A DNA stretch of 64,000 bases from Lytechinus pictus. Lineage: Eukaryota. The number at the start of each line of letters is the position of its first letter. Position 1 is the first letter of the stretch. This document shows positions 967 to 56,013 of the stretch, piece by piece. Both the position numbers and the translations under genes were made by a program. The notes below the pieces were generated by a model, which did not search any database, had not been told where the DNA came from, and was given only the letters and a program-made list of their open reading frames with translations. The stretch is from assembly GCF_037042905.1 (NCBI RefSeq), contig NC_087245.1, positions 31,374,001 to 31,438,000 of the forward strand, in the 5' to 3' direction.

Positions 967-1092
967 AAGAGTGTGAGGAGGGGTATTCTCCGTGCCCCGG
1001 CCGATCCTGTATTGCAAATAAATACCTCTGTAACGGAATAACTGATTGTCCAGGAGGAGTAGACGAGGTCAACTGTACAGCCACACCTCCAG
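967..1092 (+). CDS. Copy A exon: LDLa module (equivalent to LDLa9)
   Basis: tag|AAG acceptor; [41 protein letters not shown]; donor G|GTAAT; phase 1-1. Confidence 0.9.
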
Positions 1093-5497: not shown

Positions 5498-5578
<81 letters not shown>

Positions 5579-10187: not shown

Positions 10188-10725
10188 TGAAAAAATATCT
10201 CATAGAGACAGCGTTTTATGATGATGGTTGATGAATAGTAGTGTATATGGCAAATCTGTCAATTTTGACTTTTATTGTCTTCTTCTTTTTTATAACGACC
10301 ATAAATTGTTTCCTTTTGGGTCTTTTTAAACATTTATCCACTTATGAAAAATAATTGATATTTTTGGACATTTGTTTTTTATTTGAAAAGAAATAGTAAG
10401 ATAATACTATTCTATTGGATTGACGAAGAAATTTCTTATCGACGGAGTAATCAAGTTTTCTATATAGCCAAACGTATGTTATGTAATCACAAACCCTCTC
10501 GCAAGTTCCGACATGCATCAAATTCAAACCTTTTTTTGAGAGAGAGACTAAGTGTTTCGAAAGAATATATTCAAGTACTTGTAGTCGTGGTAGTCGACAA
10601 AAATATAGAAAAATTGATAGTGTTCTTTTATTTTTTGCTCATGAACTTTTAATTGATTGCATACACTATCATTTTGTTTTCTCTATGCATAAACAGATTT
10701 TATATCCTTATAGAATATGAACTGA

Positions 10726-10731
10726 AATAAA
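10726..10731 (+). terminator. Candidate polyadenylation signal of copy A
   Basis: AATAAA about 540 nt after the stop; conserved in copy B at 56560-56565. Confidence 0.45.
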
Positions 10732-12155
10732 GACCCTCGTCATCACACACAAAATGTGGAATATCCCACTCACCATAGACCTATTATCATGTGTAATGGT
10801 AGCATCATACTGTGAATCATTCAGAATACAAATGATATATGTTATTTGTTTGTTGATTTCCTTTTAGTAATCGATGCAAGTTTAAAATTTGTTTCTTTAT
10901 ATATATATACTTGCCAAATATCATATTACATTGGTCAGTGTTGGTGTATTAATAGTAAAATGCTAAATTTGTATCGTTTGTTGTTTATCCCTCATTTGGT
11001 TAGGTCTATATTCTGATTGTGTATAATATGAGGAAGAATAGAAAATTTTATGAAATCTGTTGAATGTCATACCTTTACATTCTTCGTACAGACAGTAGTG
11101 AGTAACACGTTTAATCCTAGTGACATGTTGGGGGTATTTGGATTAGTTGCGATGTAATTTTCATGAGGTGAAAGGGAAAAAAGTTTAAAATTTCACAATG
11201 TTGATGCATTTGTATATATGTCACATTCATATTCATGTCACTGTGCTGTATAGATTTGAACGTCTTAGTAATCCCCAATAGGTGTATATTCATGGTTGAA
11301 ATCAATGGCATAAACGGATATGAATAGTCTGCAGACACAGACCCGTGGCTTTCGCAATTCATATAATGCTTAATGCAGTCTGAAGTAGTGAGACTAGATT
11401 CACTATGTACTGTGATGGCTGGCTCATCTCTATGGGCTGGCTCTACAGTACACAACCCGAGAGTTGGGTGTCTCATAGTACTTATAGTCTTCACTCTAGA
11501 CACGGTGGTTAAAGTGTCAAGTATGAGTCTGTGCTTGCAGACTAGGCTATGAAAGTGGATACATGAGAGAGCTATGGTTTATCAGCAAAGGTAAGATTAT
11601 TTGCTGATATGAATTAATTTAACCAAGACATGGGTGCCGATTGGTGTTCATTATTGAGGGAATCCTGAAGACAGGGGGGCCGGGGGGTAAATTTCAACAA
11701 GATAATGTCATGTATAAAAACCAAAACGCAGGACGAATCCAAGAACACACTTAAATGCAAGTCAAAGCACAATCAACAGCTGGGAGGTCTTTGTCGAAAA
11801 TTGGTGAACTGGAATAGCAGATCCATCCTATTAAAGTTTTATCTAACTTCTGAGCGAAATGTAGCCCTACTCTCTATACTCTACTCTCTATACTCCCCCA
11901 AGTAATTAGTTAAGGCTGGAGCATATTATGTGCAGGCTTCCAGCAATTTTACCACGATAACCTTCAGAATTTTATTTTTCAACTTATATCGCATATTTCT
12001 AATTACATCTAAAATAGTCACAACAAGATTGGTTCCCCCATTATAGCCTCAATTTGATTTTGCTCATTAAATTTCACCAAAAAGAAATTCTTAGAAAGAA
12101 AACAAAACATTTCGAATCTGCTACCGCATCTGTCAGGTACTATAGTTAGGTCATT

Positions 12156-12822: not shown

Positions 12823-12833
12823 ATGGCGAACGG
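12823..12833 (+). CDS. Copy B candidate first coding exon (MANG)
   Basis: acaATGG Kozak-like context; ATG GCG AAC GG|GTATGT gives the phase 2 required by the TM exon. Confidence 0.55.
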
Positions 12834-39800: not shown

Positions 39801-39876
39801 GGTATTTTATATATTATGTGAGGATAAAGAATATGAGTAGTATAGTAAAAGGAATAGTAGTAGTAGTAGTAGCAGC

Positions 39877-39907
<31 letters not shown>

Positions 39908-39967
39908 ATAATGATATAGTAATTGTACATTTATATAGCGCAATGACTATATGTATGTATATGTATA

Positions 39968-40057
<90 letters not shown>

Positions 40058-40455
40058 AAGTATTAGTAGTATAAGTAGTAGTAGTAATAATGATATAGTA
40101 ATTGTACATTTATATAGCGCAATTTCTATATGTATTTATATGTATATAGTAGTAGGAGTAGTAGTAGTAGTAGTAGTGATATTAGTTGTAGTAGTATGTT
40201 ACAGTAGTGTATTAGTAGTTGTAGTAGTAGTGGTAGTAGTAGTAGTAGTAGTAGTAGAGTAGTAGTAGTAGCAGCAGCAGTAGTAGTAGTAGTAGTAGTA
40301 GTAGAAGTAGTAGTAGTAGTAGTAGTAGTAATAATGATATAGTAATTGTACATTTATAGCGCAATTTCTATATGTATTTATATGTATATAGTAGTAGTAG
40401 TATTAGTAGTATAGTAGTAGTAGTAGTGGTAGTAGTGGTAGTAGTGGTAGTAGTA

Positions 40456-40488
<33 letters not shown>

Positions 40489-40919
40489 GTGTTAGTAGTT
40501 GTAGGAGTAGTAGTAGTAGTGTTAATAGTAGTAGAAGTGGTAGTAGTAGAATAATAATGATATAGTAATTGTACATTTATATAGCGCAATTTCTATATGT
40601 ATTTATATGTATATAGTCAGTGGCGGACCGTGACCCGGTGGAGACAAAGCATTGGGGGGGCACAGCATTGTTCACAGACAATGCAGTGCCCCCCCCCATG
40701 CTTTGTCTCCACCGGGTCACGGTACGCTACTGTATATAGTAGTAGTAGTATAGTAGTAGTAGTAGTAATAATAATGATATAGTAATTGTACATTTATATA
40801 GCGCAATTTCTATATGTATTTATATGTATATAGTAGTAGGAGTAGTAGTAGTAGTAGTAGTAGTGATATTAGTTGTAGTAGTATGTTACAGTAGTGTATT
40901 AGTAGTTGTAGTAGTAGTG

Positions 40920-40953
<34 letters not shown>

Positions 40954-41057
40954 AAGTATTAGTAGTAGTAGAAGTAGTAGTAGTAGTAGTAGTAGTAATA
41001 ATGATATAGTAATTGTACATTTATATAGCGCAATGACTATATGTATGTATATGTATA

Positions 41058-41125
<68 letters not shown>

Positions 41126-41554
41126 ATAGTAGTAGTAGAAGTATTAGTAGTATAAGTAGTAGTAGTAATAATGATATAGTAATTGTACATTTATATACGG
41201 CAATTTCTATATGTATTTATATGTATATAGTAGTAGGAGTAGTAGTAGTAGTAGTAGTAGTGATATTAGTTGTAGTAGTATGTTACAGTAGTGTATTAGT
41301 AGTTGTAGTAGTAGTGGTAGTAGTAGTAGTAGTAGTAGTAGAGTAGTAGTAGTAGCAGCAGCAGTAGTAGTAGTAGTAGTAGTAGAAGTAGTAGTAGTAG
41401 TAGTAGTAGTAATAATGATATAGTAATTGTACATTTATAGCGCAATTTCTATATGTATTTATATGTATATAGTAGTAGTAGTATTAGTAGTATAGTAGTA
41501 GTAGTAGTGGTAGTAGTGGTAGTAGTGGTAGTAGTGTTAGTAGTGGTAGTAGTA

Positions 41555-41586
<32 letters not shown>

Positions 41587-41780
41587 GTTAGTAGTTGTAG
41601 GAGTAGTAGTAGTAGTGTTAATAGTAGTAGAAGTGGTAGTAGTAGAAGTAGTGGTAGTAGTAATAATAATGATATAGTAATTGTACATTTATATAGCGCA
41701 ATTTCTATATGTATTTATATGTATATAGTAGTAGTAGTATAGTAGTAGTAGTAGTAGTAGTAGTAGTATAGTAGGAGTAT

Positions 41781-41819
<39 letters not shown>

Positions 41820-41842
41820 TAGTGGTAGTAGTGGTAGTTGTG

Positions 41843-41878
<36 letters not shown>

Positions 41879-42047
41879 TTAGTAGTGTTAGTAGTAGTAG
41901 AAGTGGTAGTAGTAGAAGTAGTAGTAGTAGTAATAATAATGATATAGTAATTGTACATTTATATAGCGCAATTTCTATATGTATTTATATGTATATAGTA
42001 GTAGTAGTATAGTAGTAGTAGTAGTAGCAGTAGTATAGTAGTAGTAT

Positions 42048-42080
<33 letters not shown>

Positions 42081-42103
42081 TAGTGGTAGTAGTGGTAGTT
42101 GTG

Positions 42104-42144
<41 letters not shown>

Positions 42145-42163
42145 GTTAGTAGTAGTAGAAGTG

Positions 42164-42202
<39 letters not shown>

Positions 42203-42265
42203 ATAATAATGATATAGTAATTGTACATTTATATAGCGCAATTTCTATATGTATTTATATGTATA

Positions 42266-42301
<36 letters not shown>

Positions 42302-42469
42302 TAGTGGTAGTAGTAGTAGTTGTAGTAGTAGCAGTAGTAGTAGGTAGTAGTGGTAGTAGTAGTAGTGTTAGTAGTAGTAGAAGTGGTAGTAGTAGTAGTA
42401 GTAGTAATAATAATGATATAGTAATTGTACATTTATATAGCGCAATTTCTATATGTATTTATATGTATA

Positions 42470-42507
<38 letters not shown>

Positions 42508-42569
42508 TAGTAGTAGTATTAGTAGTAGTAGTAGTATTAGTAGTAGTGGTAGTAGTAGTAGTAGTAGTG

Positions 42570-42606
<37 letters not shown>

Positions 42607-42781
42607 AAGTATTAGTAGTATAAGTAGTAGTAGTAATAATGATATAGTAATTGTACATTTATATAGCGCAATTTCTATATGTATTTATATGTATATAGTA
42701 GTAGGAGTAGTAGTAGTAGTAGTAGTGATATTAGTTGTAGTAGTATGTTACAGTAGTGTATTAGTAGTTGTAGTAGTAGTG

Positions 42782-42815
<34 letters not shown>

Positions 42816-42829
42816 AAGTATTAGTAGTA

Positions 42830-42904
<75 letters not shown>

Positions 42905-43327
42905 ATAGTAGTAGTAGAAGTATTAGTAGTATAAGTAGTAGTAGTAATAATGATATAGTAATTGTACATTTATATAGCGCACTTTCTATATGTATTTATA
43001 TGTATATAGTAGTAGGAGTAGTAGTAGTAGTAGTAGTGATATTAGTTGTAGTAGTATGTTACAGTAGTGTATTAGTAGTTGTAGTAGTAGTGGTAGTAGT
43101 AGTAGTAGTAGTAGTAGAGTAGTAGTAGTAGCAGCAGCAGTAGTAGTAGTAGTAGTAGTAGTAGAAGTAGTAGTAGTAGTAGTAGTAGTAATAATGATAT
43201 AGTAATTGTACATTTATAGCGCAATTTCTATATGTATTTATATGTATATAGTAGTAGTAGTAGTATTAGTAGTATAGTAGTAGTAGTAGTAGTAGTAGTG
43301 GTAGTAGTGGTAGTAGTGGTAGTAGTA

Positions 43328-43359
<32 letters not shown>

Positions 43360-43618
43360 GTTAGTAGTTGTAGGAGTAGTAGTAGTAGTGTTAATAGTAG
43401 TAGAAGTGGTAGTAGTAGAAGAAGTGGTAGTAGTAATAATAATGATATAGTAATTGTACATTTATATAGCGCAATTTCTATATGTATTTATATGTATATA
43501 GTAGTAGTAGTAGTATAGTAGTAGTAGTAGTAGTAGTAGTAGTATAGTAGTAGTATTAGTAGTAGTAATAGTAGTAGTAGTAGTAGTAGTGGTAGTAGTG
43601 GTAGTAGTGGTAGTTGTG

Positions 43619-43659
<41 letters not shown>

Positions 43660-43820
43660 GTTAGTAGTAGTAGAAGTGGTAGTAGTAGAAGTAGTAGTAG
43701 TAGTAATAATAATGATATAGTAATTGTACATTTATATAGCGCAATTTCTATATGTATTTATATGTATATAGTAGTAGTAGTATAGTAGTAGTAGTAGTAG
43801 TAGTAGTATAGTAGTAGTAT

Positions 43821-43853
<33 letters not shown>

Positions 43854-43885
43854 TAGTGGTAGTAGTGGTAGTTGTGGTAGTAGTG

Positions 43886-43921
<36 letters not shown>

Positions 43922-43942
43922 GTGTTAGTAGTAGTAGAAGTG

Positions 43943-43981
<39 letters not shown>

Positions 43982-44044
43982 ATAATAATGATATAGTAAT
44001 TGTACATTTATATAGCGCAATTTCTATATGTATTTATATGTATA

Positions 44045-44080
<36 letters not shown>

Positions 44081-47000
44081 TAGTGGTAGTAGTGGTAGTA
44101 GTAGTAGTTGTAGTAGTAGCAGTAGTAGTAGGTAGTAGTGGTAGTAGTAGTAGTAGTAGTAGTCGTAGAAGTAATGATATAGTAATTGTACATTTATATA
44201 GCGCAATTTCTATCTGTATATTTTCAACTGCGCATTACAATAATATTATTATCATTACCCCGGCTATAGCCATGCTGCCTACAGGTGCTCTGGCATTCGA
44301 GGAATTTCTTTCTTCCTCGAAAAAGCACAATTTGGGTAAATTTCTTGCTGAAGGAAAACACACCATGGTTGGGAATCGAACCCACGTCCCTCAGATTGAA
44401 AGACGAGAGTCTAGACCACGACGCCCCCGTCGTCGTCGTAGTAGTAGTAGTAGTAGTAGTAGAAGTATAGTGCCCAAATTGGGTCTCCATAATCACAAAT
44501 TTAAACGTGAGTTCAGAATACGGGCCATTCCGGTACCACTCTACAGCGCGTTCCAAAATATGTCGTTCTGACATAGGGCTGAATTAATTCTAAAATGTGG
44601 TAGTATTCTCAAATAAATGTTCATGAGTAGAAAGCTCATTTCATGATCTAACTTCTATGAAAATTACATTGGAATGGGCTGAAAAGCACCACTGTAACAT
44701 AATAGACTGTATTCAAAACCACTGAAGCGAGACCAATGAAATTTTATAGAAGTTTGAACATGAGATGAGCTTCCTATATCTATACATTTCATTGAGAATA
44801 ATTCTTATTTTTAGAAGTAATTTAGCCGCATATCAGAGGGACATTTTTTGGGGGGACGCGCTGTATGTTAAATAATAGTGAAATGGAATGATATTTTTTC
44901 TAATATATTTTGTTTGTATACATCACAGTGTGTCATGATAACGCATTTGATTGTGGCAATCATCAGTGTATACCAGCTTCTTGGGAGTGCAATGGAATCT
45001 CTGACTGCTATGACGGGCAAGACGAAGATAATTGCCGTAAGTTTTCAGGAGCATAATACACTCTTCAAAATGTTGGGCAACATACTTACTGTCAACACAA
45101 CATTTGGTTAAAACTTTATCCAATTCTGGGTAGTTTTAAACCAATAATGTGTGCTTTTGGCGAAAACTACACAGTATTGGTTGAAAACTACCCAGACATG
45201 GATAATTTTTTTAACCAATTGTTGTATGGACAGTATGTTGTCCAGCATTTTAAGAGTGTAAAGAAGAGATGTCGAAAAAAGACAAGAGAAAAGAGGACGG
45301 TTACTTCGATCAGCGCATGTTTTGGTCCTCATAAAATTGAAGAAAAAAATATCATGTGATATTTCTTATCTTTTTGCAACCTATGGCATGTTTCGAAATT
45401 CATTATCAGCAAATACGTATCAGATATTTGTGCTGAAAAATGTGTAATATTAATAGATGATGGTTATCAGTATGGACGTAAAACTGCGATGCTTACATAT
45501 ATGTGCTAAATATTACTTTTACGACATCTATCCTTGCCTGTTTTCAATGGGCATAGTTTTTTTATCTTGGTAAAATTGTTTAATATGCTAATTCCATGTT
45601 TATACATGCCAGTGTATAGCCGTAAACAATTTAATCAATCACTAGATTTATGTCTCATGTTATTCCCGTGTAAGCCATGTATACCTGATTAATTTACATT
45701 TATACACTTATCTCATTAAAAAAAAACTCCCTTTAAGCAGTTCTACCAACCTTATTTGCATCATTATTTTTTTTCTCCTTATTCCGGCACAGTTATATAT
45801 TATCTTCAAGTCTTTAAAGAAATACCATTTGTTTATAATTTCTGTTTTTTATTTTACTCATGCAAGCAAATGAATTACTGACTTTATCCCCACAGAATCA
45901 TATTCTGGTTACAAATATCCAAGATTACTGTTATCCCATGTATATAATTATTCTACTCTACTCTTTTTTTTTTTTTCAACATATAACATTGATTATATTA
46001 CTTTCACATGTCATTTTGTTATGATCATTGATATTGTATATATTTTGTATTTTAACTTGTAAAGAATTTCGCAATTCAGCCTTCGGCTGCGATGAAGTGT
46101 TCTTGATAACCCATTCCAATTTCATTTCCAATTATCATGTAGCACCACCGGAACCATGTGAGGAGGGCGAGTTCCAGTGCGAGGACGGAACGTGTCTGCG
46201 CCAGGCCCTGGTATGTGACGACGTAGAACAATGCGAGTACGGTGAAGACGAAAATGCAACACTCTGCGGCAGAGGTATTAAACCTTTAATTTACCTTTAA
46301 TTGACCTTGAATTTATCTTGAATATACATTGAATTTACCTTGAATTTGTCATGAATTTACCTTGCATCTACCTTAATTTTACCTTGAAATTACCTTAATT
46401 CACCAGTAATGTACCTTAATTTTACCTTGGTTTATATTGAATTTACCTTGAAATTGATTTGAATTTACTTTGAATTTACTTTCAATTTACCTTGAATATA
46501 CTTTGAATTCACCTTGATTTTGCCTTGATTTTTTATTTACCTTACATTTACCTTGATTTCTTTTTAATTTACCCTGAAATTACCTTAAAATTACCTTGAA
46601 ATCACCTTGCATTTACCTTGAATCTACCATAAATTTACCCTAAGTCTTTCTTGAATTCACTTTTAAATTTATTTTGGATCTACCCTGAATTTACCCGGAA
46701 TTAACCTTGAACCTATTATTGAATTACCTTGTCATATTACAACTTATTTCATTCACGTACATTGTAGTAATATCCAAAATTACAATTTGTATGTAAATTT
46801 CTTATGTGTAAAAGTAAAAGAGGAGGAAACATCTCTGTATATGTATATTTTATTATACGCTACACTAACATAATTGCATCGAATTCTGGTTCATGTCCAT
46901 TAATTTTACTTAACTTTTTTCACAATATAGGCAATACTACTTTACTCGTTAAACTCGTTAAAGTTTCATTAACCCCCCCCCCCTGTTTCCACACTCTATC

Positions 47001-50000
47001 CAACTTATTTTTATATCCTAGATGAGGAAGATTCTGATTGTTACGAGTGTGGAGACGGGTCTGATTGTATCCCTTGGGATTGGATATGTGACGACTACGC
47101 TGATTGCGCTAATGCAGAAGACGAGGAGGACTGTGCAGAAGAAGGTAAGGGTTAAATAGTGGCAGAAATCATGGGCGGGTCCAGGAGGGGGGCACATTTT
47201 CCCCGAGGAAAATTTGACAAGCAAAAAAAAAAAAGGTTCTCACTAAAAAAGGAAGGTCATTTTGTCCCACGTACAATTTGACAAGCAAAAAAAAAAGGTC
47301 CTCACCTGTGTATAAACGACATATTCCCATTAAAAATATTTGATGTGACTCTAAAGGGGGCGCACTCGTGTATGATATTGATAATATTGACTCTGAAAGG
47401 GGGCACGGGCTGGATGTGCCCCCCCCCCCATATCCGCCACTGGCAGGAAGATATCAAATTAATCAAATATAGGGCCACTCAAACTAGGGGTTCGCAGAAA
47501 CACCCTTAGAAATGAATAAATAAATAAATATATAAATGAATAAGTACATAAATAAATAAATATATATATAGATAAATAAAATCTATAAAGAAATAAAAGA
47601 AGAAAAGATAACAAATGAATAGATTAAAATACAAATAAGTAATAAAGAAATGAAAAATAAAAATAAAAATAACGATGAGAATAGAGTAAATAAATAAATC
47701 AAGTTAATCTAAGAGAAAAAATAAAAAATGAGATAAATTGAATAAAACTAAATGTTAACCATCTTTGGAATTGATAACCTTTTTCATTCTGTATAAAAAA
47801 TTCTCATGGAGGAAAATCTCAACCAATACTTTTTTTTCTTATCAAATTCATGAGAAGGTAAAGTCGACCATATCTTGAGTTCATAAACTTTTTTTTATCA
47901 CATTGTTGACCCATTCTAAATCAATAGTCGACCCTTTCTAAATAGGTCATAATAGCTCGGAATGTGTTATATGTTTAGTCTGCATATTCAATTCCAAGTC
48001 ATGTAAAAGTGTGAAAAATGAAGTTATAAATATGACGATTAATCATTGGCATGTTTCGTAAACTTTGTCAAGAAGAATAGATTTCTGTAACAAACTTAAG
48101 TACTTTATTATTAATAGACAATGTTCAGTACACCCATATATACATTTTTAATATTCTCATTCGATGTTTTTGTTTGTAAGGTACGTGTATTGAATTTCAT
48201 CTGCAGTATACCAACGTGTGAGAAAACCCTCATTTCTCATATATGTTCCTTATTTTTGTATATCGTCATGAATGAATATGTGAAAGACAAAACAATAATT
48301 ATGTTTCGTCATTCATCTGATGCAGTTTTTCAATTAAGCTCTAGGGCCTTAATCAAATTAGGATTGCAATGCAATTATAATCAGAGTATGGTCGTCTTGA
48401 TCGATGTAATAATATAGTATGAAATTGATAGGCAAACTATTTTTATTCTATTTTTCCAGGGGGGATAAATTATAATATTGAATAGTCTTGCTTTGATATT
48501 TTGAATGTAGCGCGCGCTCTCTCTTTCTCTCTTTGCCTCAATTAATTAACCAAAACGCTTTCTTTTAAACTTTCTTTTCATTTAAATCTTCTCTAAAAGA
48601 GTGTGAGGAGGGGTATTCTCCGTGCCCCGGCCGATCCTGTATTGCAAATAAATACCTCTGTAACGGAATAACTGATTGTCCAGGAGGAGTAGACGAGGTC
48701 AACTGTACAGCCACACCTCCAGGTAATATAACTCCAAGAGGTTTTCATGATAATTCCTTCATCAAAGTTTTTAGTCGTACTTACCTATTCCACAACACAC
48801 ACACACACATGCACACACCCTTACCCACTCACCTACGCCACACACACATGCCCACATAAAAGACAAAAGACGATCATATTTTCTTATATGATAATGAGTA
48901 GGAGTTTATTTTTCATGTTTCCATATAGTGACCCTCCGGAAATTGTATATTTCTGTGCTCTAGTTCATATGAAAATTTGTAATACTTTAAATGGTCTTCA
49001 CTTGGACAATTGACGAAGTGAAATAACAATGAAGAAAGTAGTGGTCAGACCTGCAAAAATGTTGATGGAGTTACCCTACAATTAATACAATATATTGTAT
49101 TGAGTATGCTATATATAAAAAAAAATGATATTTATGAATTTCTACTAAATTTCATCAAACCTATAGATCTATGTGTATCCATCAACGGCTCGGAATACTT
49201 TGTGTGTGATGGTAAAGAGGACTGCCCCGGAGGAACAGATGAATCACGACCTGAGTGCAGTGAGTAAATGTACCTTAACTTGTCATATATGTATATTGTT
49301 GGTTGATCGATTGATTGATGGAGGGATCAAGAAAAATGAACACAATAAATGAGAAAGAAAAAAAACAAATCACTTAAAAATTAAAACAAGAGCATTCATG
49401 GAAGTTTCAGAAACATATCTGTGTGAGAGAAGTCAAATTGCAGCGGGGTTTTTTTAATGAATTTAGATTTTATTCATTTCCAATCAACAAAATAGACAAA
49501 ATACAATCGAAGTAACAGTACATATTCAAAATAACACTGACAGTTCAATGATATATACATAAAAATATTGAAAATAATTAAACAGATTCTAGAGTGAGCT
49601 GCAATTTATTTTTGGCTAGAAAAAGTATGTGGAACTGAACGGAGGGAGAAAAGCAAGTCCCTAAACTTAGTTTTAATACTTGATTAACAAAACTATATAC
49701 AATAATGGAGACGGTCGGAAGACGAGCTTAAGACAAGTAAACTACAAAATATCAAAGTAAAGCGAATAAGCGACGACACAATTAAGATGAAATAATTTAG
49801 ACAATAATTATCACAATTAATGTATGCTAATATTAATGTATGATATGATATAATGTAAGTAGAGTGTAACATGGAAGAAAATATTTTAGTTTGTTGATAA
49901 TTCAGATTTTTCTTGAAATTATTTTGCATATATTATCGATATGTGGTTTCCATGATAGTTTATTGCAATAAGAACACCCAATAATCTGGTATCAGAATTT

Positions 50001-53000
50001 TTTTTCAAGAACAGTGTTATAAAAAACAAGATTGTCAGGGAAGGTATGTATTTTGTTACTAAAGAGCATAAAATTCGTCTTTTGCAGGTTAAGTAATAGT
50101 TCATTAGCCTTAATCCAGCCAATCACATGTATGACTTCTGAGTTTATAATTCTTACAAGTTAGTTGGTTTACGTTATCATAAGAAAAGAAATGTTCGAAT
50201 CGTCAGCAAACAGTATGAATGTTAGTAATTTTGAACTTTTTTAATATCATTAATATAAGTAATAAAAAGAAGAGGACCAAGTAAGCCACCCTGTAGTACT
50301 CCACATGTAAAAGGAAGGGTAGAAGAAATAACGTTAACTGATACAAATTCAGACTTGTCTGTAAGGTAGCTCCTGAACCACTTCCCCCGAATACCATAAA
50401 AATAAAGTTTATGAAGAAGTATTTCGTGGTTAATGGTGTCGAAGGCATTGGAGACGTCCAGGAAAAAGTATGACAACCTTTATTTATGAAAGTAGTGATT
50501 TTATCAATAAAAGACAGAATTGCATGTGAGGTGCTATGATTTTCACAAAACCCAAATTGCTAGTTCGAAAAGATATTGTGTTAATTAAAGAATGTACTTG
50601 TCCGTATATATATAAGTTTTTTAAGAATTTTAGATAACGAAGTGAGCAATGAAATAGGCCGGTAGTAAGAAACAAGTTTATTATCCCCTTTTTTTGTTAA
50701 GAGGGATGACTTTGGCTATTTTCATGAGATTAGGTACTTACCTGTGTTCAAAGAACTATTAAATCTATTCACACGACTAATCATCATTTTCTCTCAAATA
50801 AAAGACAGATGATGTTGGATAATGACAAGACAAGATAATTAATTTCTTGATTCATGTGGTTTGTTATTGCAGATTGCGGAACCATTCCTTTGTCTCAGTC
50901 GAGAGTCATCGGTGGTCAAGATTCGAAAAGGGGAAACTGGCCAATGCAAATCTTAATCAGCAGTGAGAACAATTATCAAACATGTAGACTTTGGGTTATA
51001 AAAGTAGAAAAGTTCATGGAGGGGTGTAGATTGCGGACGGGGAATGCCTTTTCCTTGGATTTCAGATGAAAGGTGTTGGATGCCACGTGTAGATGTGTAA
51101 TAGCTCAGTGGGCAAGTCACCGGAGTTTGAACCACGAGGTCCGGGGTTCAAACCCCACCACGGCACTCACGTCTTTTGTCAATGCGTTTATGTACATTTG
51201 CCACTTTCCACCAATTTGTAGGAATTCCTTACATGTGCCAGGGTAGCTTGCAGCGTTTAGAAACATTGTTTTAAGCGCTATGTAAATGTTGCATATTATC
51301 ATTCTGACTATTACTATTGATATTATTATTATAATTATCATTATTATTAAGTGATATTTTATCACAAATATGTTCACATTTGTATTATCATTTGCATGAG
51401 ATGGAGTCCCCAGTCCCCGGCGATACTGAAAGCGTAAAAATTTATTATAATTCGGGAAGAACACAGAATTCACAGAATTTCACGGAAAACACATTGTTCT
51501 GGCTTAGTGAGTTGAATTTTAAAAAATAACATCGAAAATCATGGGGAAAAAAAATTGCATGATTAAAGAATCTTTCTATCAAACCTCTCCTTATTATCTG
51601 CCTTGGCTTTTGCGGATCCAGGATATTCTCCATGGGGGCACTTTGTACAGGAAATTTTTGACCAAAAAAAAAGTCTACTCCAAATGGAGGTCTTTGTTGC
51701 AGGAAAAACTGGACAGGCAAAAAAAGGTCTCCACTACCAAGCGATGTCATTGTGTCCCATGAACAAATTGAGTGCCTCTCAAATGGGGATGGGGGTGGGG
51801 TACGGGCCAGATGCCCCCCCCCCCTGGATCCGTCACTGTTCATAGATACTTTCGTTTTTCTTAGATTTTCAGTACTTACAATATTGCATTATAAAAAAAA
51901 ATCGTTTTGCACATGTCACCAAAGAACATGGAATGCGATGTTAAGAACAGCAAAAAACACCAAATTGGCATTTTAGGAATCCAAAATCTGGGGTCTGGCG
52001 TAAGATTTTAAGTATTAGGTCAATTTAAAAGTCTGACTGTAGGAAATAATTGTTGGTCGATGTCTACGAACTCATTTCATTACCATTGTTGTTTTGATAT
52101 TACTTTATTATCATTATTATTATCATTATTATTATAATAATTATCATTATTATTATTATTATTATTATCAATATTATTATTATTATTATTAGTGTAGTTA
52201 TTAAGATCATAAGTAAGACATTACTATGTTTGTTCATTTTCACCACCCATTCAGCTGAGATTACGTCGGCCAGTCTCTATTGCGCAGGCACTATTCTCAA
52301 CCGTCGTTGGGTAATGACTGCTGCTCACTGTGTGTGAGTATTCCAGAGCCCCGTCTTACAAAGAGTTACGATTGATCCGATCAACCTCATCTATATGGAA
52401 AACCATCAATGTCATAATTTCTACTACAGCGAATTTGCAAAATGTCCTTTATAGATAAAGAGAATAAAGAATTTCCAAGAAAACAATGTATAAATATACA
52501 TAATATCTGGATTTTTTATATAAAACAAACCAAACATGCAGCTTAGATGTTGACATTGCTGGCTTTCCATAGTTTTGGTTGATCGGATCGATTAGTAACT
52601 CTTTGAAAGACGGGGCCCAAATAGGGAGAAAGGAAGGGAGAGAGTAACAGAAAGAACGAGATAGAGACAGAGAACCATAGATGGAGAGAGAGAGATGAGA
52701 TTTTTTTTTACAATATTTTTTTTTCTTGAAAGACTTGTTTGCATTTCATTCTGTCAATGTTCTAATGTAAATGTATAAAGTGATAGCTGTGTCTTTCTAC
52801 GCACCATAATTATACTGTATCAATAATCATGTGTATTTATCACTTGTATTGGATATTCATTTGCATTGTAATTTTTTGTAATTATTTTATTTAATGTGTA
52901 ATTTGATTTATTATTATTGTTGAGAAATGACAATAAACTTGAACCTTGAATCGCGATGATAGAACGATGAAAGTAAACTGCCATGCAATAGTAATCACAA

Positions 53001-56000
53001 ACCTGGGTTTCAATAATGAAAATATCACAGCGTATATGGTCATAACACAAAATATATAAATATATAATACTAAAATAGGCAGTGTGTACAACATGACAAA
53101 GAAAACATCTGTACGCAATCTACAACAGACAGCATCATTTCGGTCATTTTCATAACCTTATTTTGTCCTGGTAAAGGGATAAATTACTAATATTCGTAAA
53201 ATTTAACATTCTGTTTTAAACTCGTAGGGGGCCAAGTACGGTTGGAAATTTCTACGTCGTCGCGGGTGTGACCGATGTGAATGGAGACAACTCTACCTGG
53301 CAGTTCAGGCTCATCGCTGACGCCGTATGCAATCCCGAGTTCTCCTTCACTACCTTTGTCGGGGGTGACAACTGTCTCTTGCTCATGGATGAACCCTTTG
53401 AGTTCAATGACTACGTGCAGCCGGCCTGCATACCTGGCCCCAACTTTACCCTTGATCATTACGCCACCGCCGTGGGATGGGGACAAACAGGGGGAGGTGA
53501 GAACAGCAACACGTATCTCTGTTTTATGTTGATGTAATCTGTCATCGGGGGGGGGGGGGGGGTCATAAAGCTGTTCATAGTTTAAGAGGGACTTTAAGAA
53601 GACTGTGAACCTTTCTTACGCGCTAACATATTGGTGTATACCATTTACCAAAAGAAAGGATCACCAGTCGTCCTCAAAGTCGCCCTTAACTTACGAACAG
53701 CTTTATGAAAACCCCACCTGGGGTCAATTGCAGTAAGGGTTATGCTCAAACACAAACTCCAAAAGTCAAACGCAACTAGACTTTCAACAAAAGGAATACG
53801 AGTATTAGTAACTTGTGGTTGATTTCTTGACTTGCGTTTTAAGACAACCATTTCTTTAACGGACTCCTGGTCATGTTATATCAGTTTTTAAATGTCAAGT
53901 CCATCCGAAGAAAAAAAAGTTGAGCTGAATGAAAACAGGACAATCTAATCTAGATGAGAAAGTTGTGATATTTCCCACTCTCCCCTCCCCCCCCCCTCTC
54001 TCTCTCTCTCTCTTATTGTCACAAAACCACTTTCTGATGTCATTGTACTTGATGATGAATATAGTCTGTAAATGACCAATATGCAATCGGAGACGAATAT
54101 ATTCACTTGAAAACGAATATACTTTATTGATGACGATCATAATCACTTGATAAATATACTCACTTTGTGACGATTATAATCACTAGATGACAAACATACT
54201 ATCTCTTGGTGACGAATATATTCACTTTATGACGAATATACTCTCTTAGACGAATATACTCACTTGATGACGAATATACTCTCTAGATGACGAATATACT
54301 CTCTTGGTACCGAATATACTCTCTTGGTAACGAATATACTCTCTAGATGACGAATATACTCTCTTGGTGACGAATATACCCTCTTAATGACGAATATACT
54401 CTCTTTTGACGAAAATACTCTATAGATGACGAATATACTATCTAGATGACGAATATACTCTCTTGGTGACGAATATACTCTCTAGATGACGAATATACTC
54501 TCTTGGTGACGAATATACTCTCTAGATGACGAATATACTATCTTGATGACGAATATACCATCTAGATTGCGAATTTATATTCTGGATGACGAATACACTC
54601 TCTTGTTGACAAATCTACTCTCTTGGTGACGAATATACTCTCTAGATAACGAATATACTCTCTTGGCGACGAATATACCATCTAGATTGCGAATTTATTT
54701 TCTGGATGACGAATACACTCTCTTGTTGACAAATCTACTCTCTTGGTGACGAATATACTCTCTAGATAACGAATATACTCTCTTGGTGACGAATATACCA
54801 TCTAGATTGCGAATTTATTTTCTGGATGACGAATACACTCTCTTGTTGACAAATCTACTCTCTTGGTGACGAATGAACTTTCTAGATAACGAATATACTC
54901 TCTTGGTGACGAACATACCATCTAGATTGCGAATTTATTTTCTGGATGACGAATACACTCTCTTGTTGACAAATCTACTCTCTTGGTGACGAATATGCTA
55001 TATTCTCTTCATATACCAGCCTCTCTCTGTTATTTTCGGAGGTCGCAAATTCGAGTCTAAAAATCTTCTACGTTCGTAAATTTATTGATTATGTTAATTT
55101 TCCTAATTATTATTGGGTGATTCATACATGTTCTAATCGTCATTTCTATTTCTTCGAACTATCCCAGGATACACAGCTCCTAATCTTCAGGTGGTCCGCC
55201 TACCCGTTTGGCCAGACAATATTTGTGACAGATATAGTTACTTTGGCAGTGATGATGTTGAAAAAGTAATCTGCATCGGTTACGAGAAGGGAGGCCATGG
55301 ATTATGCTTTGTGAGTATCTAGCGTTTTTGTTGACAAAAAAATCTAGAAACATAATCAAATGAAATAGAGAAGTAAAAAAAACCTGCGTAATCTTAGAAT
55401 CGAATAAATAAATCAATAAAGTTTAGGCCGTAAAATGAAATTACAAACATTATATATTTCATTAAATTTTTCTTAGCTAACAAATATTTTAAGGCTATTG
55501 AATATAAAGTGGATAAAACGCTTATGAATTTTTTAGCGGTATGACTTAGTAGATGTCGAGTGAGCTGCGATTGGCTTACGGTAAACAAAATTAGGCTTGA
55601 CAGCCAATCACAGCTCGTCATTCAGCGACCAATATCTTTTCTGGTATATTATTTCGTGATCTAGCGTTCTATTCACCTATGCCATTTATACTCACGAGTG
55701 TTTATGTTAAAAACCTTCAGTATGTTTGTTTCCAATGCTATTTTTCCGAAATTGCAGCACCAAACACTTATTCATCTGATAGATACAAACGTATGATGCT
55801 AAGGCAAGATTTTTTTCTTCGTTTTCCTTTTCAATTCAGGGCGATTCCGGTGGATCTATTCTCATGGAGAGGGATAATCTCTGGTACGTCGTCGGGACTG
55901 TGTCGGGTGGGAGTGAATGCGGTGCTCCGTTCACACCCAGCGAATGCACAAAAACTTCCTACTATTACCAATTCATCAATGACACCATAAACAATGTCTA

Positions 56001-56013
56001 TCCTGACTATTAA
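12823..56013 (+). CDS. Copy B, complete gene: type II transmembrane serine protease-like protein (TM-mucin-CUB-10xLDLa-S1A protease), about 833 aa, 22 exons
   Basis: join(12823..12833,17885..18018,20301..20315,21148..21228,24691..24720,30757..30909,31617..31811,32483..32605,35226..35330,37053..37148,37830..37940,39688..39801,44929..45036,46143..46274,47022..47144,48600..48722,49167..49259,50873..50962,52255..52333,53228..53496,55168..55310,55840..56013) = 2502 nt, open frame, all GT-AG. The first exon and the micro-exons are the least certain. Confidence 0.85.
13458..13683. mobile_element. MITE with CACTGCAAAAACTC-type TIRs
   Basis: ACTGCAAAAACTCTGGTGTT...AACACCGGAGTTTTTGCAGT, about 50-bp imperfect inverted repeat. 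Confidence 0.75.
14029..16190. repeat. 29-bp satellite array (ACTTACACAACGATGTCATTTACTATGTA), about 70-75 units
   Basis: Period of 29 seen directly; no unique spacers; first unit inverted. Confidence 0.96.
16563..16777. repeat. Three abutting palindromes (160 bp, 42 bp, 18 bp)
   Basis: Centres GTA|TAC at 16642/3 and CCTA|TAGG at 16741/2, then GATATCA-gtat-TGATATC at 16760-16777. Confidence 0.93.
17080..17790. repeat. Foldback-type interspersed repeat (gtcta.. / ..tagac motifs) with a nested MITE at about 17150-17365; related to 35505-35890
   Basis: Short repeated motifs that switch orientation mid-element; nested inverted repeat gtcactctaa..ttagagtgac. Confidence 0.55.
17885..18018 (+). CDS. 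Copy B exon: cytoplasmic tail + signal-anchor helix
   Basis: Polypyrimidine tract + cag; [51 protein letters not shown]. Confidence 0.85.
19256..19529 (+). mobile_element. tRNA-derived SINE
   Basis: A box TGGCCCAGTGG, anticodon-loop remnant CTTTGAA (Gln-like), B box GGTTCGAATCCC, core CTCAACCCAGGTG..AATGGGTACC, (TTA)n tail. Confidence 0.88.
19873..20129. mobile_element. hAT-type MITE
   Basis: CATAGGCGGCGG...CCGCCGCCAATG with perfect 8-bp TSD CTGCCATC. Confidence 0.88.
20301..20315 (+). CDS. Copy B 15-nt micro-exon (ELSRQ)
   Basis: Long (CT)n tract + ccacag|AGCTTTCCAGACAAG|GTAAA; phase 1-1. Confidence 0.6.
21148..21228 (+). CDS. Copy B exon: Thr-rich mucin-like stalk
   Basis: [34 protein letters not shown]; 81 nt, phase 1-1. 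Confidence 0.72.
21365..21989. mobile_element. Probable Kolobok-like non-autonomous element
   Basis: AAAGGGGATCCCAACC...GGGCTGGATTCCCATTTAA degenerate TIRs; TTAA at the right end only. Confidence 0.45.
22230..22530. repeat. Degenerate (TTTGCA/TTTGTA)n hexamer tract
   Basis: Seen directly; explains the CKYK ORF. Confidence 0.8.
22561..22626 (+). pseudogene. Decayed Thr-rich pseudo-exon
   Basis: [20 protein letters not shown]; 66 nt, phase 1-1; donor C|GTAGGT retained; acceptor lacks G; in-frame TAA at 22623. Confidence 0.6.
23811..24000. mobile_element. 190-bp element with TAGTCT...AGACTA termini and 9-bp TSD (AcademH-like by inference)
   Basis: GGGGTAACC at 23802-23810 and 24001-24009; terminal hairpins. 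Confidence 0.75.
24691..24720 (+). CDS. Copy B 30-nt exon ([10 protein letters not shown])
   Basis: tacag| ... G|GTAAGT consensus donor; phase 1-1. Confidence 0.7.
25960..27546 (+). mobile_element. Highly degenerate LINE fragment
   Basis: GTGCCGCAAGGATCCATCTTGGGTCCGATCCTTTTC = [12 protein letters not shown] near 26200; later LKWNDHV..CKKVSK; AATAAA + (ACCAA)n end; boundaries approximate. Confidence 0.65.
26376..26585. mobile_element. MITE nested in the LINE fragment
   Basis: TA-CATTCTTAAAACAAATCAGT...ACTGATTTGTTTTTAGAGTG-TA; inner inverted repeat CAGCTGGGTGCAACTG. Confidence 0.75.
27723..27889. mobile_element. Small hAT-like MITE (related truncated copy at about 31372-31519)
   Basis: CAGGGGCCGCGGAA...TTCCGCGGCCCTTG. 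Confidence 0.65.
28134..30590 (-). mobile_element. PIF/Harbinger DNA transposon, internally deleted
   Basis: TIRs AGCTGTGGTCACATCCCGTCGTAC / AGCCCTGGTCACAAGCCGCCGTAC (19/24); flanks TAA/TAC; GC-rich subterminal regions; HARBI1-like transposase remnants. Confidence 0.9.
28896..29772 (-). pseudogene. Frameshifted HARBI1-like (DDE_Tnp_4-type) transposase
   Basis: [27 protein letters not shown]...[41 protein letters not shown]; at least 2 frameshifts; the GAIDG-type first catalytic segment is missing. Confidence 0.9.
30757..30909 (+). CDS. Copy B exon: CUB domain, N-terminal half
   Basis: [51 protein letters not shown] resembles the CUB pattern SPxyP..APeGxrvxlxFxxF; |GTAAGT. Confidence 0.85.
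31617..31811 (+). CDS. Copy B exon: CUB domain, C-terminal half
   Basis: [72 protein letters not shown]. Confidence 0.85.
32483..32605 (+). CDS. Copy B exon: LDLa1
   Basis: [41 protein letters not shown]. Confidence 0.88.
32959..35093 (+). mobile_element. 2.1-kb non-autonomous TIR element with repeated GCGAGCGCGAAGCGCGAGC motifs
   Basis: CAGGGGCGGATCCAG...CTGGATCCGCCTATG; TAAGA on both flanks; no ORF. Confidence 0.78.
35226..35330 (+). CDS. Copy B exon: LDLa2 (degenerate acidic motif)
   Basis: [42 protein letters not shown]. Confidence 0.85.
36300..36998. mobile_element. Two tandem copies (first partial) of a MITE with TGGACCTAACCCCTTTTGCAA motifs
   Basis: GAAGAG..TTGCAAAAGGGGTTAGGTCCA at about 36663 is inverted relative to TGGACCTAACCCCTTTTTGCAA..CTCTTC at about 36995. 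Confidence 0.6.
37053..37148 (+). CDS. Copy B exon: LDLa3 (4-Cys variant)
   Basis: [32 protein letters not shown]. Confidence 0.88.
37830..37940 (+). CDS. Copy B exon: LDLa4
   Basis: [37 protein letters not shown]. Confidence 0.9.
38386..38642 (+). mobile_element. Second tRNA-derived SINE family
   Basis: TGGTCTAGTGATTAGAGC A box and GAGTTCAAATC B box; A-rich end. Confidence 0.55.
39021..39306 (-). mobile_element. tRNA-derived SINE inserted within a (GAT)n tract (38920-39470)
   Basis: Reverse complement of the 19256 family; (GAT)n on both sides. Confidence 0.85.
39688..39801 (+). CDS. Copy B exon: LDLa5
   Basis: [38 protein letters not shown]. Confidence 0.9.
39836..44215. repeat. 4.4-kb composite array: about 19 constant units of roughly 60 bp separated by variable (AGT)n tracts
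   Basis: Unit AATAATGATATAGTAATTGTACATTTATATAGCGCAATTTCTATATGTATTTATATGTATAT; explains all the poly-T/V/S/Y/L ORFs. Confidence 0.96.
40618..40732. mobile_element. 115-bp palindromic hAT-type MITE
   Basis: CAGTGGCGGACCGTGACCCGGTGGAGACAAAGCAT..ATGCTTTGTCTCCACCGGGTCACGGTACGCTACTG; perfect 8-bp TSD TATATAGT. Confidence 0.92.
44172..44428 (-). mobile_element. tRNA-derived SINE whose 3' end is the array monomer
   Basis: Minus strand GGGGCGTCGTGGTCTAG..GGTTCGATTCCC..CCTTCAGCAAGAAATTTACCC; tail merges into the array unit. Confidence 0.8.
44544..44863. mobile_element. Tc1/mariner-type MITE
   Basis: TA-CAGCGCGTTCC...GGGACGCGCTG-TA; long imperfect inverted repeat. Confidence 0.78.
44929..45036 (+). 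CDS. Copy B exon: LDLa6
   Basis: [36 protein letters not shown]. Confidence 0.9.
45059..45258. mobile_element. MITE with CACTCTT TIRs
   Basis: TA-CACTCTTCAAAATGTTGGGCAACATACT...AGTATGTTGTCCAGCATTTTAAGAGTG-TA. Confidence 0.8.
46143..46274 (+). CDS. Copy B exon: LDLa7
   Basis: [44 protein letters not shown]. Confidence 0.9.
46280..46732. repeat. 11-bp minisatellite (AATTTACCTTG)n
   Basis: Degenerate tandem units starting just after the LDLa7 donor. Confidence 0.88.
47022..47144 (+). CDS. Copy B exon: LDLa8 (very acidic)
   Basis: [41 protein letters not shown]. Confidence 0.9.
47169..47442. mobile_element. hAT-type MITE related to 6232-6495
   Basis: CATGGGCGGGTCCAGG...TATCCGCCACTG. Confidence 0.6.
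48600..48722 (+). CDS. Copy B exon: LDLa9 (must use the distal AG of a former NAGNAG)
   Basis: Exon body identical to 970-1092; proximal TAG has become TAA. Confidence 0.8.
49167..49259 (+). CDS. Copy B exon: LDLa10 (4-Cys variant)
   Basis: [31 protein letters not shown]. Confidence 0.88.
49303..50810 (-). mobile_element. Degenerate LINE fragment, uninterrupted counterpart of 2482-5330
   Basis: [32 protein letters not shown]...[21 protein letters not shown]. Confidence 0.8.
50873..50962 (+). CDS. Copy B exon: activation site
   Basis: [30 protein letters not shown]. Confidence 0.9.
52255..52333 (+). CDS. Copy B exon: catalytic His
   Basis: [27 protein letters not shown]. Confidence 0.93.
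53228..53496 (+). CDS. Copy B exon: catalytic Asp
   Basis: [13 protein letters not shown]...[21 protein letters not shown]...VQPACIP...AVGWGQT. Confidence 0.93.
54090..55000. repeat. 20-bp minisatellite with a 120-bp higher-order repeat
   Basis: Identical text recurs at 54601, 54721, 54841 and 54961. Confidence 0.93.
55168..55310 (+). CDS. Copy B exon: protease 170-192 region
   Basis: [19 protein letters not shown]...[15 protein letters not shown]. Confidence 0.92.
55840..56013 (+). CDS. Copy B terminal exon: catalytic Ser
   Basis: GDSGGSILM...[42 protein letters not shown] at 56011-56013. Confidence 0.93.
   Translation, partial: GDSGGSILMERDNLWYVVGTVSGGSECGAPFTPSECTKTSYYYQFINDTINNVYPDY

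What the first reader, a model, noticed from the sequence alone, without database searches (positions are those of the whole stretch)
55168..56013. Intact catalytic triad but non-tryptic specificity pocket (G189, G215, S226, S198)
Seen in both copies: GGHGLCF-GDSGGS where GGxDSCQ-GDSGGP is usual, VSGG for VSWG, and PS(I/E)CT for PGVYT. Counting from GDSGG, residue 189 is Gly (codons 9478-9480 and 55299-55301). Known: Asp189 gives Arg/Lys specificity in essentially all characterised TTSPs, and Trp215 shapes S2-S4. Inference: a membrane-tethered protease that prefers uncharged or hydrophobic P1 residues. Its activation site is Arg|(I/V)IGG, so it probably cannot self-activate and would need an upstream tryptic protease, implying a cascade.
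Basis: partly seen in the sequence, partly recalled or inferred. Interest (0 to 1): 0.72.

Follow-up and report, generated by a model that had tools for sequence, protein, structure and literature searches.

The report
Sea urchin non-tryptic membrane serine protease
A sea urchin cell-surface protease has an intact cutting site but lacks the acidic residue that makes known proteases of its type cut after arginine or lysine, and it belongs to an old, apparently undescribed urchin family that probably cuts after uncharged residues.

Summary
The interval holds the last two of 22 coding exons of a spliced sea urchin gene: type II anchor, CUB, ten LDLa-type modules, trypsin-fold protease. It matches RefSeq Lytechinus pictus XP_063956463. 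His57/Asp102/Ser195, Gly193/Asp194 and an Arg|Val-Ile-Gly-Gly activation site are intact; residue 189 is Gly and 215 is Gly. The two window copies (about 95% identical proteins) are weak support. The strong support is a monophyletic urchin family of three paralogue groups (Lytechinus, Strongylocentrotus, Diadema). All 23 family domains keep the triad and a basic activation site, and none has Asp189; none of the 22 complete at 215 has Trp215. Ser226 and Ser198 occur only in Lytechinus, so they are not the family's determinants. Best reading (0.6): an active membrane protease with neutral or hydrophobic P1, switched on in trans by a tryptic protease (furin-type for one paralogue). Activity is unproven, and this lineage also carries odd Asn103, Ser198 and Cys228, so a weak or cofactor-gated enzyme remains possible. 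Non-Asp189 S1A domains are common (69 of 575 sampled have Gly189), and insect modSP is a soluble precedent. The membrane-anchored version appears uncharacterised: a new variant of a known kind.

The parts
12823..12833 (+). Coding exon 1 of gene copy B (start ATG), followed by a GT donor
   Evidence: Only Met-Ala-Asn match in the + frames; sequence
17885..18017 (+). Exon with short cytoplasmic tail and type II signal-anchor (about 17940-17996)
   Evidence: Exact match to P0233 residues 5-48; hydropathy 3.1 at residue 23
20300..24719 (+). Three short stalk exons (20300-20317, Thr-rich 21150-21227, 24693-24719)
   Evidence: Exact mapping of P0233 residues 49-90
30756..31810 (+). Divergent CUB domain on two exons (30756-30908, 31619-31810)
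   Evidence: No Pfam hit on these exons. They are collinear with the Pfam-positive CUB of paralogue P0169; the Diadema orthologue P0003 has CUB at E=1.3e-5
32482..49258 (+). Ten exons, each an LDL-receptor class A-type module (some degenerate)
   Evidence: Mapping; Pfam PF00057 on 2 of 2 such exons scanned and 7 stretches in the orthologue P0001
50873..50962 (+). Activation exon: tethering Cys, Arg15 (50902-50904) | Val16-Ile-Gly-Gly (from 50905)
52255..52333 (+). Protease exon with Cys42, His57 (52326-52328), Cys58
   Evidence: (PF00089)
53228..53496 (+). Protease exon with Cys90 (53328-53330), Asp102 (53367-53369), Asn103, Cys104 (53373-53375), Cys122; Ala at 136
55168..55310 (+). Protease exon with Cys168, Cys182, Gly189 (55299-55301), Leu190, Cys191, Phe192
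   Evidence: covered by spliced contigs
55311..55839 (+). 529-base GT..AG intron between residues 192 and 193
   Evidence: Joint 55310->55840 in contigs of runs X1 and X7
55840..56013 (+). Last exon: Gly193, Asp194, Ser195 (55846-55848), Ser198, Ser214, Gly215 (55906-55908), Gly216, Glu219, Cys220, Ser226 (55939-55941), Glu227, Cys228 (55945-55947), stop
40..11727 (+). 3' part of tandem copy A (two LDLa exons; protease exons 5391-5480, 6822-6900, 7816-8084, 9347-9489, 10014-10187), a duplicate of 47644-57543
   Evidence: Self-comparison; translation equals the C-terminus of RefSeq model P0231

Best explanation
The gene encodes a type II membrane zymogen (anchor, stalk, CUB, ten LDLa modules, S1A protease) of a sea-urchin subfamily that lost Asp189 before Diadema and the camarodont urchins split. 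SHOWN: architecture, splicing, intact His57/Asp102/Ser195, Gly193/Asp194/Ser214/Gly216, Arg|Val/Ile activation site, and family-wide absence of Asp189 and Trp215. INFERRED: a separate tryptic protease cuts after Arg15; Val16 inserts and pairs with Asp194; the chain stays tethered through Cys1-Cys122. The S1 pocket (Gly189 floor, Leu190 wall, Gly216/Ser226 rim, Cys228 in place of Tyr) then takes an uncharged, most likely aliphatic or aromatic P1 such as Leu, Met or Phe. Leu190 probably fills the space left by Tyr228. With no indole at 215, S2-S4 is open, and residue 227 (Ile, Val or Glu in the L. pictus copies) may set P2-P4 preference. The enzyme would act on proteins at the cell surface and should not activate itself.
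For: All 23 family domains (isoforms and older models included) have His57, Asp102 and Ser195 and a basic P1 at the activation site (Arg in groups 1 and 2, Lys in group 3). Residue 189 is Gly in 18 and Ser in 5, Asp in 0; residue 215 is Gly in 19, Ser in 3, missing in 1 truncated model. Only 45 of 238 columns are invariant across 14 family rows, and 91 of 238 across 7 group-1 rows, yet the triad is among them, which points to selection on catalysis. The clade holds with pocket columns removed: support 98 in FastTree on 53 rows and SH-aLRT 98 in IQ-TREE on 30 rows. The AlphaFold2 model of the mature domain is an ordinary trypsin fold (pLDDT 89, pTM 0.89), closest to enteropeptidase and matriptase (Z 35.5, rmsd 1.8 A over 228 residues; TM 0.88). 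No acidic residue stands at 226 in any of the 22 complete rows. Precedent for the same classes of change in an LDLa-bearing family: 4 wasp modSP-type proteins carry Ser189, Val190, Gly198 and Val215; Drosophila modSP is classed chymotrypsin-like (PMC11050137, table passage); and HP14 is described as autoactivating upstream of a cascade (PMC10036332, passages). Spliced contigs in 2 of 4 runs laid.
Against: No activity data exist. This lineage has changes next to the catalytic core that were absent or nearly absent from 575 triad-intact comparison domains: Asn103 (0), Cys228 (0), Ser198 (2); the L. variegatus and S. purpuratus orthologues also have Met229. In thrombin, removing the Trp215 side chain loosens the 170s and 220s loops and speeds active-site closure, with reduced activity (PMC10339233 and PMC7294081, passages). 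The S1 loops are trypsin-length, and engineered trypsin that merely loses Asp189 is a poor enzyme (recalled). Leu190 with a small residue at 228 is one evolutionary event (10 related rows), not independent covariation.
Confidence: 0.6

Rival explanations
1. Weak, cofactor-gated or catalytically vestigial enzyme. The family ancestor was an active non-tryptic protease, but this camarodont lineage (Asn103, Ser/Ala198, Gly215, Cys/Val228, Thr/Met229) rests in a closed state. It cuts one substrate only when a partner bound through the CUB/LDLa stem orders the site (complement factor I-like, recalled), or it serves as a binding or decoy protein.
For: The cluster of rare changes near Asp102 and the S1 base is confined to Lytechinus and Strongylocentrotus group 1; the Diadema orthologue and the other paralogues keep Pro198 and an aromatic 228. 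Loss of Trp215 destabilises thrombin's active site. Copies A and B differ at 20 codons by amino acid, pN 0.038 against pS 0.060, which is weak constraint.
Against: Triad, oxyanion residues and activation site are retained between Lytechinus and Strongylocentrotus at only 65% domain identity. 17 of the 20 A/B amino-acid changes fall in the first 112 residues, many in surface loops, and none hits the triad or S1. Cys90 and Cys104 appear together, which looks like rebuilding rather than decay.
Confidence: 0.25
2. Broad or residual basic specificity. An acid elsewhere (Glu219, or Glu227 in copy B) or a bound anion substitutes for Asp189, so the enzyme still accepts Arg and can slowly autoactivate.
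For: Glu219 is present in all camarodont group-1 and group-2 rows. The activation site is always basic. Relocated-charge proteases exist (Asp/Glu226 types, recalled; PDB 1bra is listed).
Against: The known substitute position, 226, is Ser, Gly, Thr or Asn in all 22 complete rows. Residue 219 is Ala, Thr or Met in Diadema group 1 and in group 3, and 227 is Ile, Val or Leu in the other group-1 rows. Leu190 and Phe/Tyr192 make the pocket apolar.
Confidence: 0.12
3. The feature is real but the 'two copies' are one locus assembled twice (uncollapsed haplotypes). This affects only the duplication, not the pocket.
For: Substitutions in non-coding stretches between the copies are 0.9-8.2% (9 stretches), a range that polymorphic urchin genomes can reach (recalled).
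Against: A-type and B-type proteins recur in two sets of RefSeq models: A/A 97.7%, B/B 98.2%, A/B 92.7-94.7%. L. variegatus also has two models on one contig.
Confidence: 0.2

Closest known systems
Vertebrate type II transmembrane serine proteases (matriptase/ST14, enteropeptidase, corin)
   Same: Type II anchor, CUB and LDLa stem (plus SEA in paralogue group 2), C-terminal S1A domain, basic activation site, tethering Cys; nearest solved folds are enteropeptidase and matriptase.
   Different: TTSPs are described as trypsin-like with Lys/Arg at P1 (PMC4161349, PMC7834812, passages); this family has Gly/Ser189 and Gly/Ser215 and lacks Cys136-Cys201. The stem is one CUB plus ten LDLa modules, with no SRCR, MAM or Fz. 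It forms its own clade, not grouped with the vertebrate TTSP rows sampled. The RefSeq names 'ST14-like' and 'corin-like' are automatic labels.
Insect modular serine proteases (Drosophila modSP, Manduca HP14)
   Same: LDLa-rich stem and non-Asp189 pocket with hydrophobic 190, non-Pro198 and non-Trp215; classed chymotrypsin-like.
   Different: They carry CCP rather than CUB modules and are soluble (recalled). Their activation site is Leu|Ile/Val, matching their own pocket, so they can autoactivate; the urchin proteins have Arg/Lys there.
Chymotrypsin / elastase / neutrophil elastase-type S1A enzymes
   Same: Small neutral 189 and hydrophobic 190-192 (Gly189, Val190, Phe192 in neutrophil elastase, recalled). 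Pancreatic chymotrypsinogen and proelastase are activated by a tryptic cut (recalled).
   Different: They are small soluble enzymes, mostly with an aromatic residue at 215 and 228 (recalled); no membrane anchor or modular stem.
Hemichordate multi-protease membrane proteins (Saccoglossus XP_002736238, Ptychodera XP_070534296)
   Same: N-terminal hydrophobic segment, CUB/LDLa modules and a second protease domain with Gly189 and an intact triad.
   Different: Uncharacterised predictions. They carry a tryptic domain in the same chain and keep an aromatic 215. Their Gly189 domains group apart from the urchin clade, which suggests a separate loss of Asp189.

Membership tests
Peptidase S1A (trypsin fold) | Trypsin fold and PF00089 | tested here: met
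   Pfam on exons and orthologues; model matches at Z 35, TM 0.88
Peptidase S1A (trypsin fold) | His57/Asp102/Ser195, Gly193, Asp194 and an N-terminal insertion motif | tested here: met
Peptidase S1A (trypsin fold) | Proteolytic activity | not testable with these tools
   Needs an assay
Type II transmembrane serine proteases (architecture class) | Single N-terminal signal-anchor with short cytoplasmic tail | tested here: met
   Hydropathy peak 3.1 at residue 23, basic residues before it; 16 of 16 family proteins scored 2.86-3.65. Topology is inferred, not measured.
Type II transmembrane serine proteases (architecture class) | Modular stem (CUB, LDLa, SEA) before a C-terminal protease with tethering cysteine | tested here: met
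Type II transmembrane serine proteases (architecture class) | Asp189, trypsin-like P1 Arg/Lys pocket | tested here: not met
   Gly189; 0 of 23 family domains have Asp189
Matriptase / corin / enteropeptidase subfamilies | Subfamily stem (SEA-CUB2-LDLa4; Fz/SRCR; MAM/SRCR; layouts recalled) | tested here: not met
   One CUB plus ten LDLa modules; no SEA, Fz, MAM or SRCR hit in the orthologues
Matriptase / corin / enteropeptidase subfamilies | Orthology by protease-domain tree | tested here: inconclusive
   No matriptase, corin or enteropeptidase sequence was in the trees; deep nodes are unresolved
Insect modSP/HP14 | LDLa + CCP stem and hydrophobic activation-site P1 | tested here: not met
   No CCP hit; activation site is Arg, against Leu in modSP-type proteins
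Serine protease homologues (pseudo-proteases) | Loss of a triad residue | tested here: not met
   Triad intact in 23 of 23 family domains

The most novel reading that the evidence does not exclude
Sea urchins keep an ancient three-member set of non-tryptic TTSPs that forms a second, hydrophobic-P1 tier of cell-surface proteolysis. One member is armed constitutively by furin (Arg-Leu-Arg-Arg-Arg-Arg|Met site), two await a tryptic trigger (Arg or Lys site), and none can activate itself or the others. This gene is the most rebuilt member (Leu190/Cys228 swap, open Gly215 floor, new Cys90-Cys104 bridge), and it is duplicating with loop and 227 changes that retune its substrates. These would be the first demonstrable chymotrypsin/elastase-type TTSPs and a natural solution to working without both Asp189 and Trp215.
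Probability: 0.35. Interest if true: 0.7.

Novelty: new variant of a known kind. Interest (0 to 1): 0.5.

Why it matters
TTSPs are treated as uniformly trypsin-like. A conserved urchin family with the TTSP layout and an apolar pocket would show that cell-surface S1A proteolysis can be re-aimed at hydrophobic bonds and made dependent on an upstream activator. It also offers natural, stepwise variants (Diadema to Strongylocentrotus to Lytechinus) for the old question of how S1 specificity changes without loss of activity, and of what Trp215 is needed for. L. pictus is an established multigenerational laboratory model (bioRxiv 10.1101/2023.09.14.557644, abstract in search listing), so knock-outs are feasible. 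The limits: non-Asp189 S1A domains are common in animals, and no function or tissue is known yet.

Tried and rejected
No whole genome is held for this window, so synteny of the three paralogue groups was not mapped. RefSeq contig lengths only suggest that they share a chromosome in each species. Search for non-urchin orthologues: the 150 best hits of the representative search and the 120 listed of 3211 hits of the profile search were dominated by multi-protease proteins. No starfish or sea-cucumber member appeared, but these lists cannot exclude one. No RNA holder was on record as RNA. Raw-read runs X4 (4 reads, none across the joint) and X5 (0 reads) were read at about 6 in 100 and are no test of expression. 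I first read the X7 contig as a mosaic of copies A and B; I rejected this once its two coding changes in the last exon (Val227, Phe at the codon of 55964) and the Asn at 55254 matched the older A-type model P0234. An apparent Gly215 in modSP-type P0057 was a misalignment. Literature: searches listed no paper on this gene or on a non-tryptic urchin TTSP; in the 20 rows listed the locus tag and accession had 0 occurrences. The library lacks most subscription journals, and I opened no supplements, where single-cell or proteomic tables could list the gene. Passages of PMC4880809 and PMC9663175 gave nothing on it. Earlier findings of this scan: none returned. No complex prediction was run, because no binding claim is made.

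Full report
WHAT IS THERE. The window is intron-rich animal DNA of 31-46% G+C per 2-kb bin. The interval 55168-56013 holds the last two coding exons of a gene that runs from an ATG at 12823 to a stop at 56011-56013. RefSeq model P0233 (XP_063956463, Lytechinus pictus, 833 aa, automatic name 'ST14 homolog') maps onto the window in 21 exact segments plus the start exon. The five protease exons translate to exactly its C-terminus. The protein has a short tail, one hydrophobic segment (Kyte-Doolittle 3.1 from residue 23), a Thr-rich stalk, a divergent CUB domain, ten one-exon LDLa-type modules and an S1A domain. Bases 40-11727 duplicate 47644-57543 and encode the C-terminus of model P0231.

OBSERVATION. 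The register is fixed by alignment to solved plasma kallikrein and by splicing. Contigs of runs X1 and X7 join 55310 to 55840 across a GT..AG intron, and their loose ends continue into the Asp exon. The X1 contig has 0 other letters over both exons. These runs are not on record as RNA, but exact intron removal points to mRNA. The other 2 of the 4 runs laid gave 4 and 0 reads and are no test.

HOW UNUSUAL. From my search hits I cut 734 protease domains: 23 family and 711 other, of which 575 have an intact triad. This sample is redundant and rich in multi-protease proteins, so it is not a census. Among the 575: Asp189 423, Gly189 69, Ser189 56; Trp215 322, Phe 152, Gly 7; Pro198 552, Ser 2; Tyr228 444, Cys 0; Asn103 0; Gly189 with Gly215 together 2. 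One Gly215 row proved misaligned. Gly189 is therefore ordinary among S1A domains, and the combination is rare.

THE FAMILY. The two window copies are poor evidence: they differ at 33 of 755 protease-exon bases and at 20 amino acids. Relatives are much better evidence. Orthologues occur in L. variegatus (85% domain identity), S. purpuratus (65%) and Diadema (47%). Two further paralogue groups with a collinear CUB-LDLa stem occur in these urchins: group 2, with an added SEA domain, in Lytechinus and Strongylocentrotus; group 3 also in Diadema. With pocket columns left out, they form one clade (FastTree 98 on 53 rows; IQ-TREE SH-aLRT 98 on 30 rows), and Diadema P0003 joins this gene's group (96 and 92). 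Across the 23 family domains, isoforms and older models included: triad 23 of 23; residue 189 Gly 18, Ser 5, Asp 0; residue 215 Gly 19, Ser 3, missing 1; residue 226 Ser 9 (all Lytechinus group 1), Gly 1, Thr 3, Asn 9, missing 1; residue 198 Ser 9, Ala 2, Pro 12; residue 192 always Tyr or Phe; activation P1 always Arg or Lys. Only 45 of 238 columns are invariant across 14 family rows. So loss of Asp189 and Trp215 is old and shared, while Ser226 and Ser198 are local. Group 2 has a polybasic, furin-type activation site (consensus R-X-R/K-R and the presence of furin in echinoderms from PMC10381214, passages).

STRUCTURE. AlphaFold2 on the mature domain of P0233 with 31 sequences gave pLDDT 89 and pTM 0.89, with 82-96 over residues 171-220. 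The best matches are enteropeptidase and matriptase light chains (Foldseek TM 0.88; Z 35.5, rmsd 1.8 A, 228 residues). The fold is intact, but no coordinates were returned, so I measured no pocket. In the model, strand 71-80 ends at Cys90 and strand 95-99 starts at Cys104 (mature residues 80 and 95). Both cysteines are present in Lytechinus and both are absent in S. purpuratus, which suggests a new cross-strand disulfide (inference). Leu190 goes with Cys or Val at 228 in the 10 complete camarodont group-1 rows, while the rest of the family has a small or Pro residue at 190 with Phe/Tyr228. Residues 190 and 228 are neighbours in trypsin (recalled), so this looks like a size swap, but it is a single event.

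MECHANISM. Best reading (0.6): an active, membrane-tethered protease with an uncharged, probably aliphatic or aromatic P1, activated in trans by a tryptic cut at Arg15 and unable to activate itself. The sequence features are shown; activation route, P1 preference and activity are inferred. Against it: rare changes near Asp102 and the S1 base in this lineage, and thrombin data that loss of the Trp215 side chain mobilises the 170s and 220s loops and lowers activity (PMC10339233, PMC7294081, passages). These support a weak or cofactor-gated rival (0.25). Residual basic specificity through Glu219 or Glu227 is less likely (0.12), because neither residue is conserved and 226 is never acidic. The need for an upstream activator follows, but it is the usual arrangement for chymotrypsinogen (recalled) and has a TTSP-world parallel in prostasin, which does not autoactivate (PMC7834812, passage).

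COMPARISON. By layout it is a TTSP. It fails the feature that the literature gives to TTSPs, Lys/Arg specificity through an acidic S1 (PMC4161349, passages; PMC7834812), and its stem is not that of matriptase, corin or enteropeptidase. It works more like a membrane-bound chymotrypsin or elastase. Precedents narrow the novelty. Insect modSP/HP14 are LDLa-rich and chymotrypsin-like (PMC11050137 table; PMC10036332), and four wasp modSP-type proteins show Ser189/Val190/Gly198/Val215 but with a Leu activation site. Two hemichordate membrane proteins carry a second, Gly189 domain that groups apart from the urchin clade. A review states that echinoderm serine proteases still lack a systematic classification (PMC10381214). 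Six searches listed no paper on this family, in a library that misses most subscription journals; supplements were not opened.

THE DUPLICATION. A-type and B-type proteins recur in two sets of RefSeq models (within type 97.7-98.2%, between types 92.7-94.7%), which favours true tandem paralogues over a haplotype artefact without proving it. Between A and B, pN is 0.038 and pS 0.060; 17 of 20 amino-acid changes lie in the first 112 residues of the mature domain, and residue 227 is Ile/Val in A and Glu in B.

VERDICT. A real, conserved and apparently undescribed variant of the TTSP plan with a non-tryptic pocket; function and activity untested. Interest 0.5; new variant of a known kind.

Noticed in passing
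P0124 / P0221 / P0305 (paralogue group 2; not in the window): SEA-CUB-LDLa protease with a five-arginine, furin-type activation site followed by Met16, and a Gly189/Pro190/Gly215/Asn226 pocket, in Lytechinus and Strongylocentrotus.
   Followed up: partly
window 53328-53330 and 53373-53375: Cys90 and Cys104 are both present in Lytechinus and both absent in S. purpuratus (Trp, Ala): a likely new disulfide beside Asp102. Cys228 (55945-55947) appears unpaired.
   Followed up: partly
window 6822-8084 against 52255-53496: Amino-acid differences between copies A and B cluster in the His and Asp exons, including loops around the active site, while the last two exons differ at only 3 residues; possible substrate divergence or gene conversion.
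   Followed up: partly
window 10187-12823: Copy B starts only about 2.6 kb after the stop of copy A: a tight head-to-tail array.
   Followed up: no
window 1475-2295: Insert of about 810 bases in an intron of copy A, absent from copy B, with long inverted arms (87% over 347 bases): MITE-like.
   Followed up: no
window 28899-29743 (-): DDE_Tnp_4 (Harbinger-type) transposase pieces in a G+C-richer intron segment.
   Followed up: partly
window 58731-59558 and 26094-26258: Reverse-transcriptase (LINE-like) remnants.
   Followed up: no
window 14066-16191, 39836-44173, 8630-9167, 54092-54996, 46282-46711, 4133-4751: Intronic tandem arrays with periods 29, 3 (4.3 kb), 20 (higher order 120 in copy B), 11 and about 160.
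   Followed up: no
P0105 (Saccoglossus) and P0107 (Ptychodera): Membrane proteins carrying a tryptic domain and a Gly189 domain in one chain, each behind an Arg site: a possible built-in activator-effector pair.
   Followed up: partly
P0088 (L. pictus XP_063966351): A 2345-aa CUB/LDLa protein with three protease domains, two with broken triads and a third with Ser189/Asp226.
   Followed up: no
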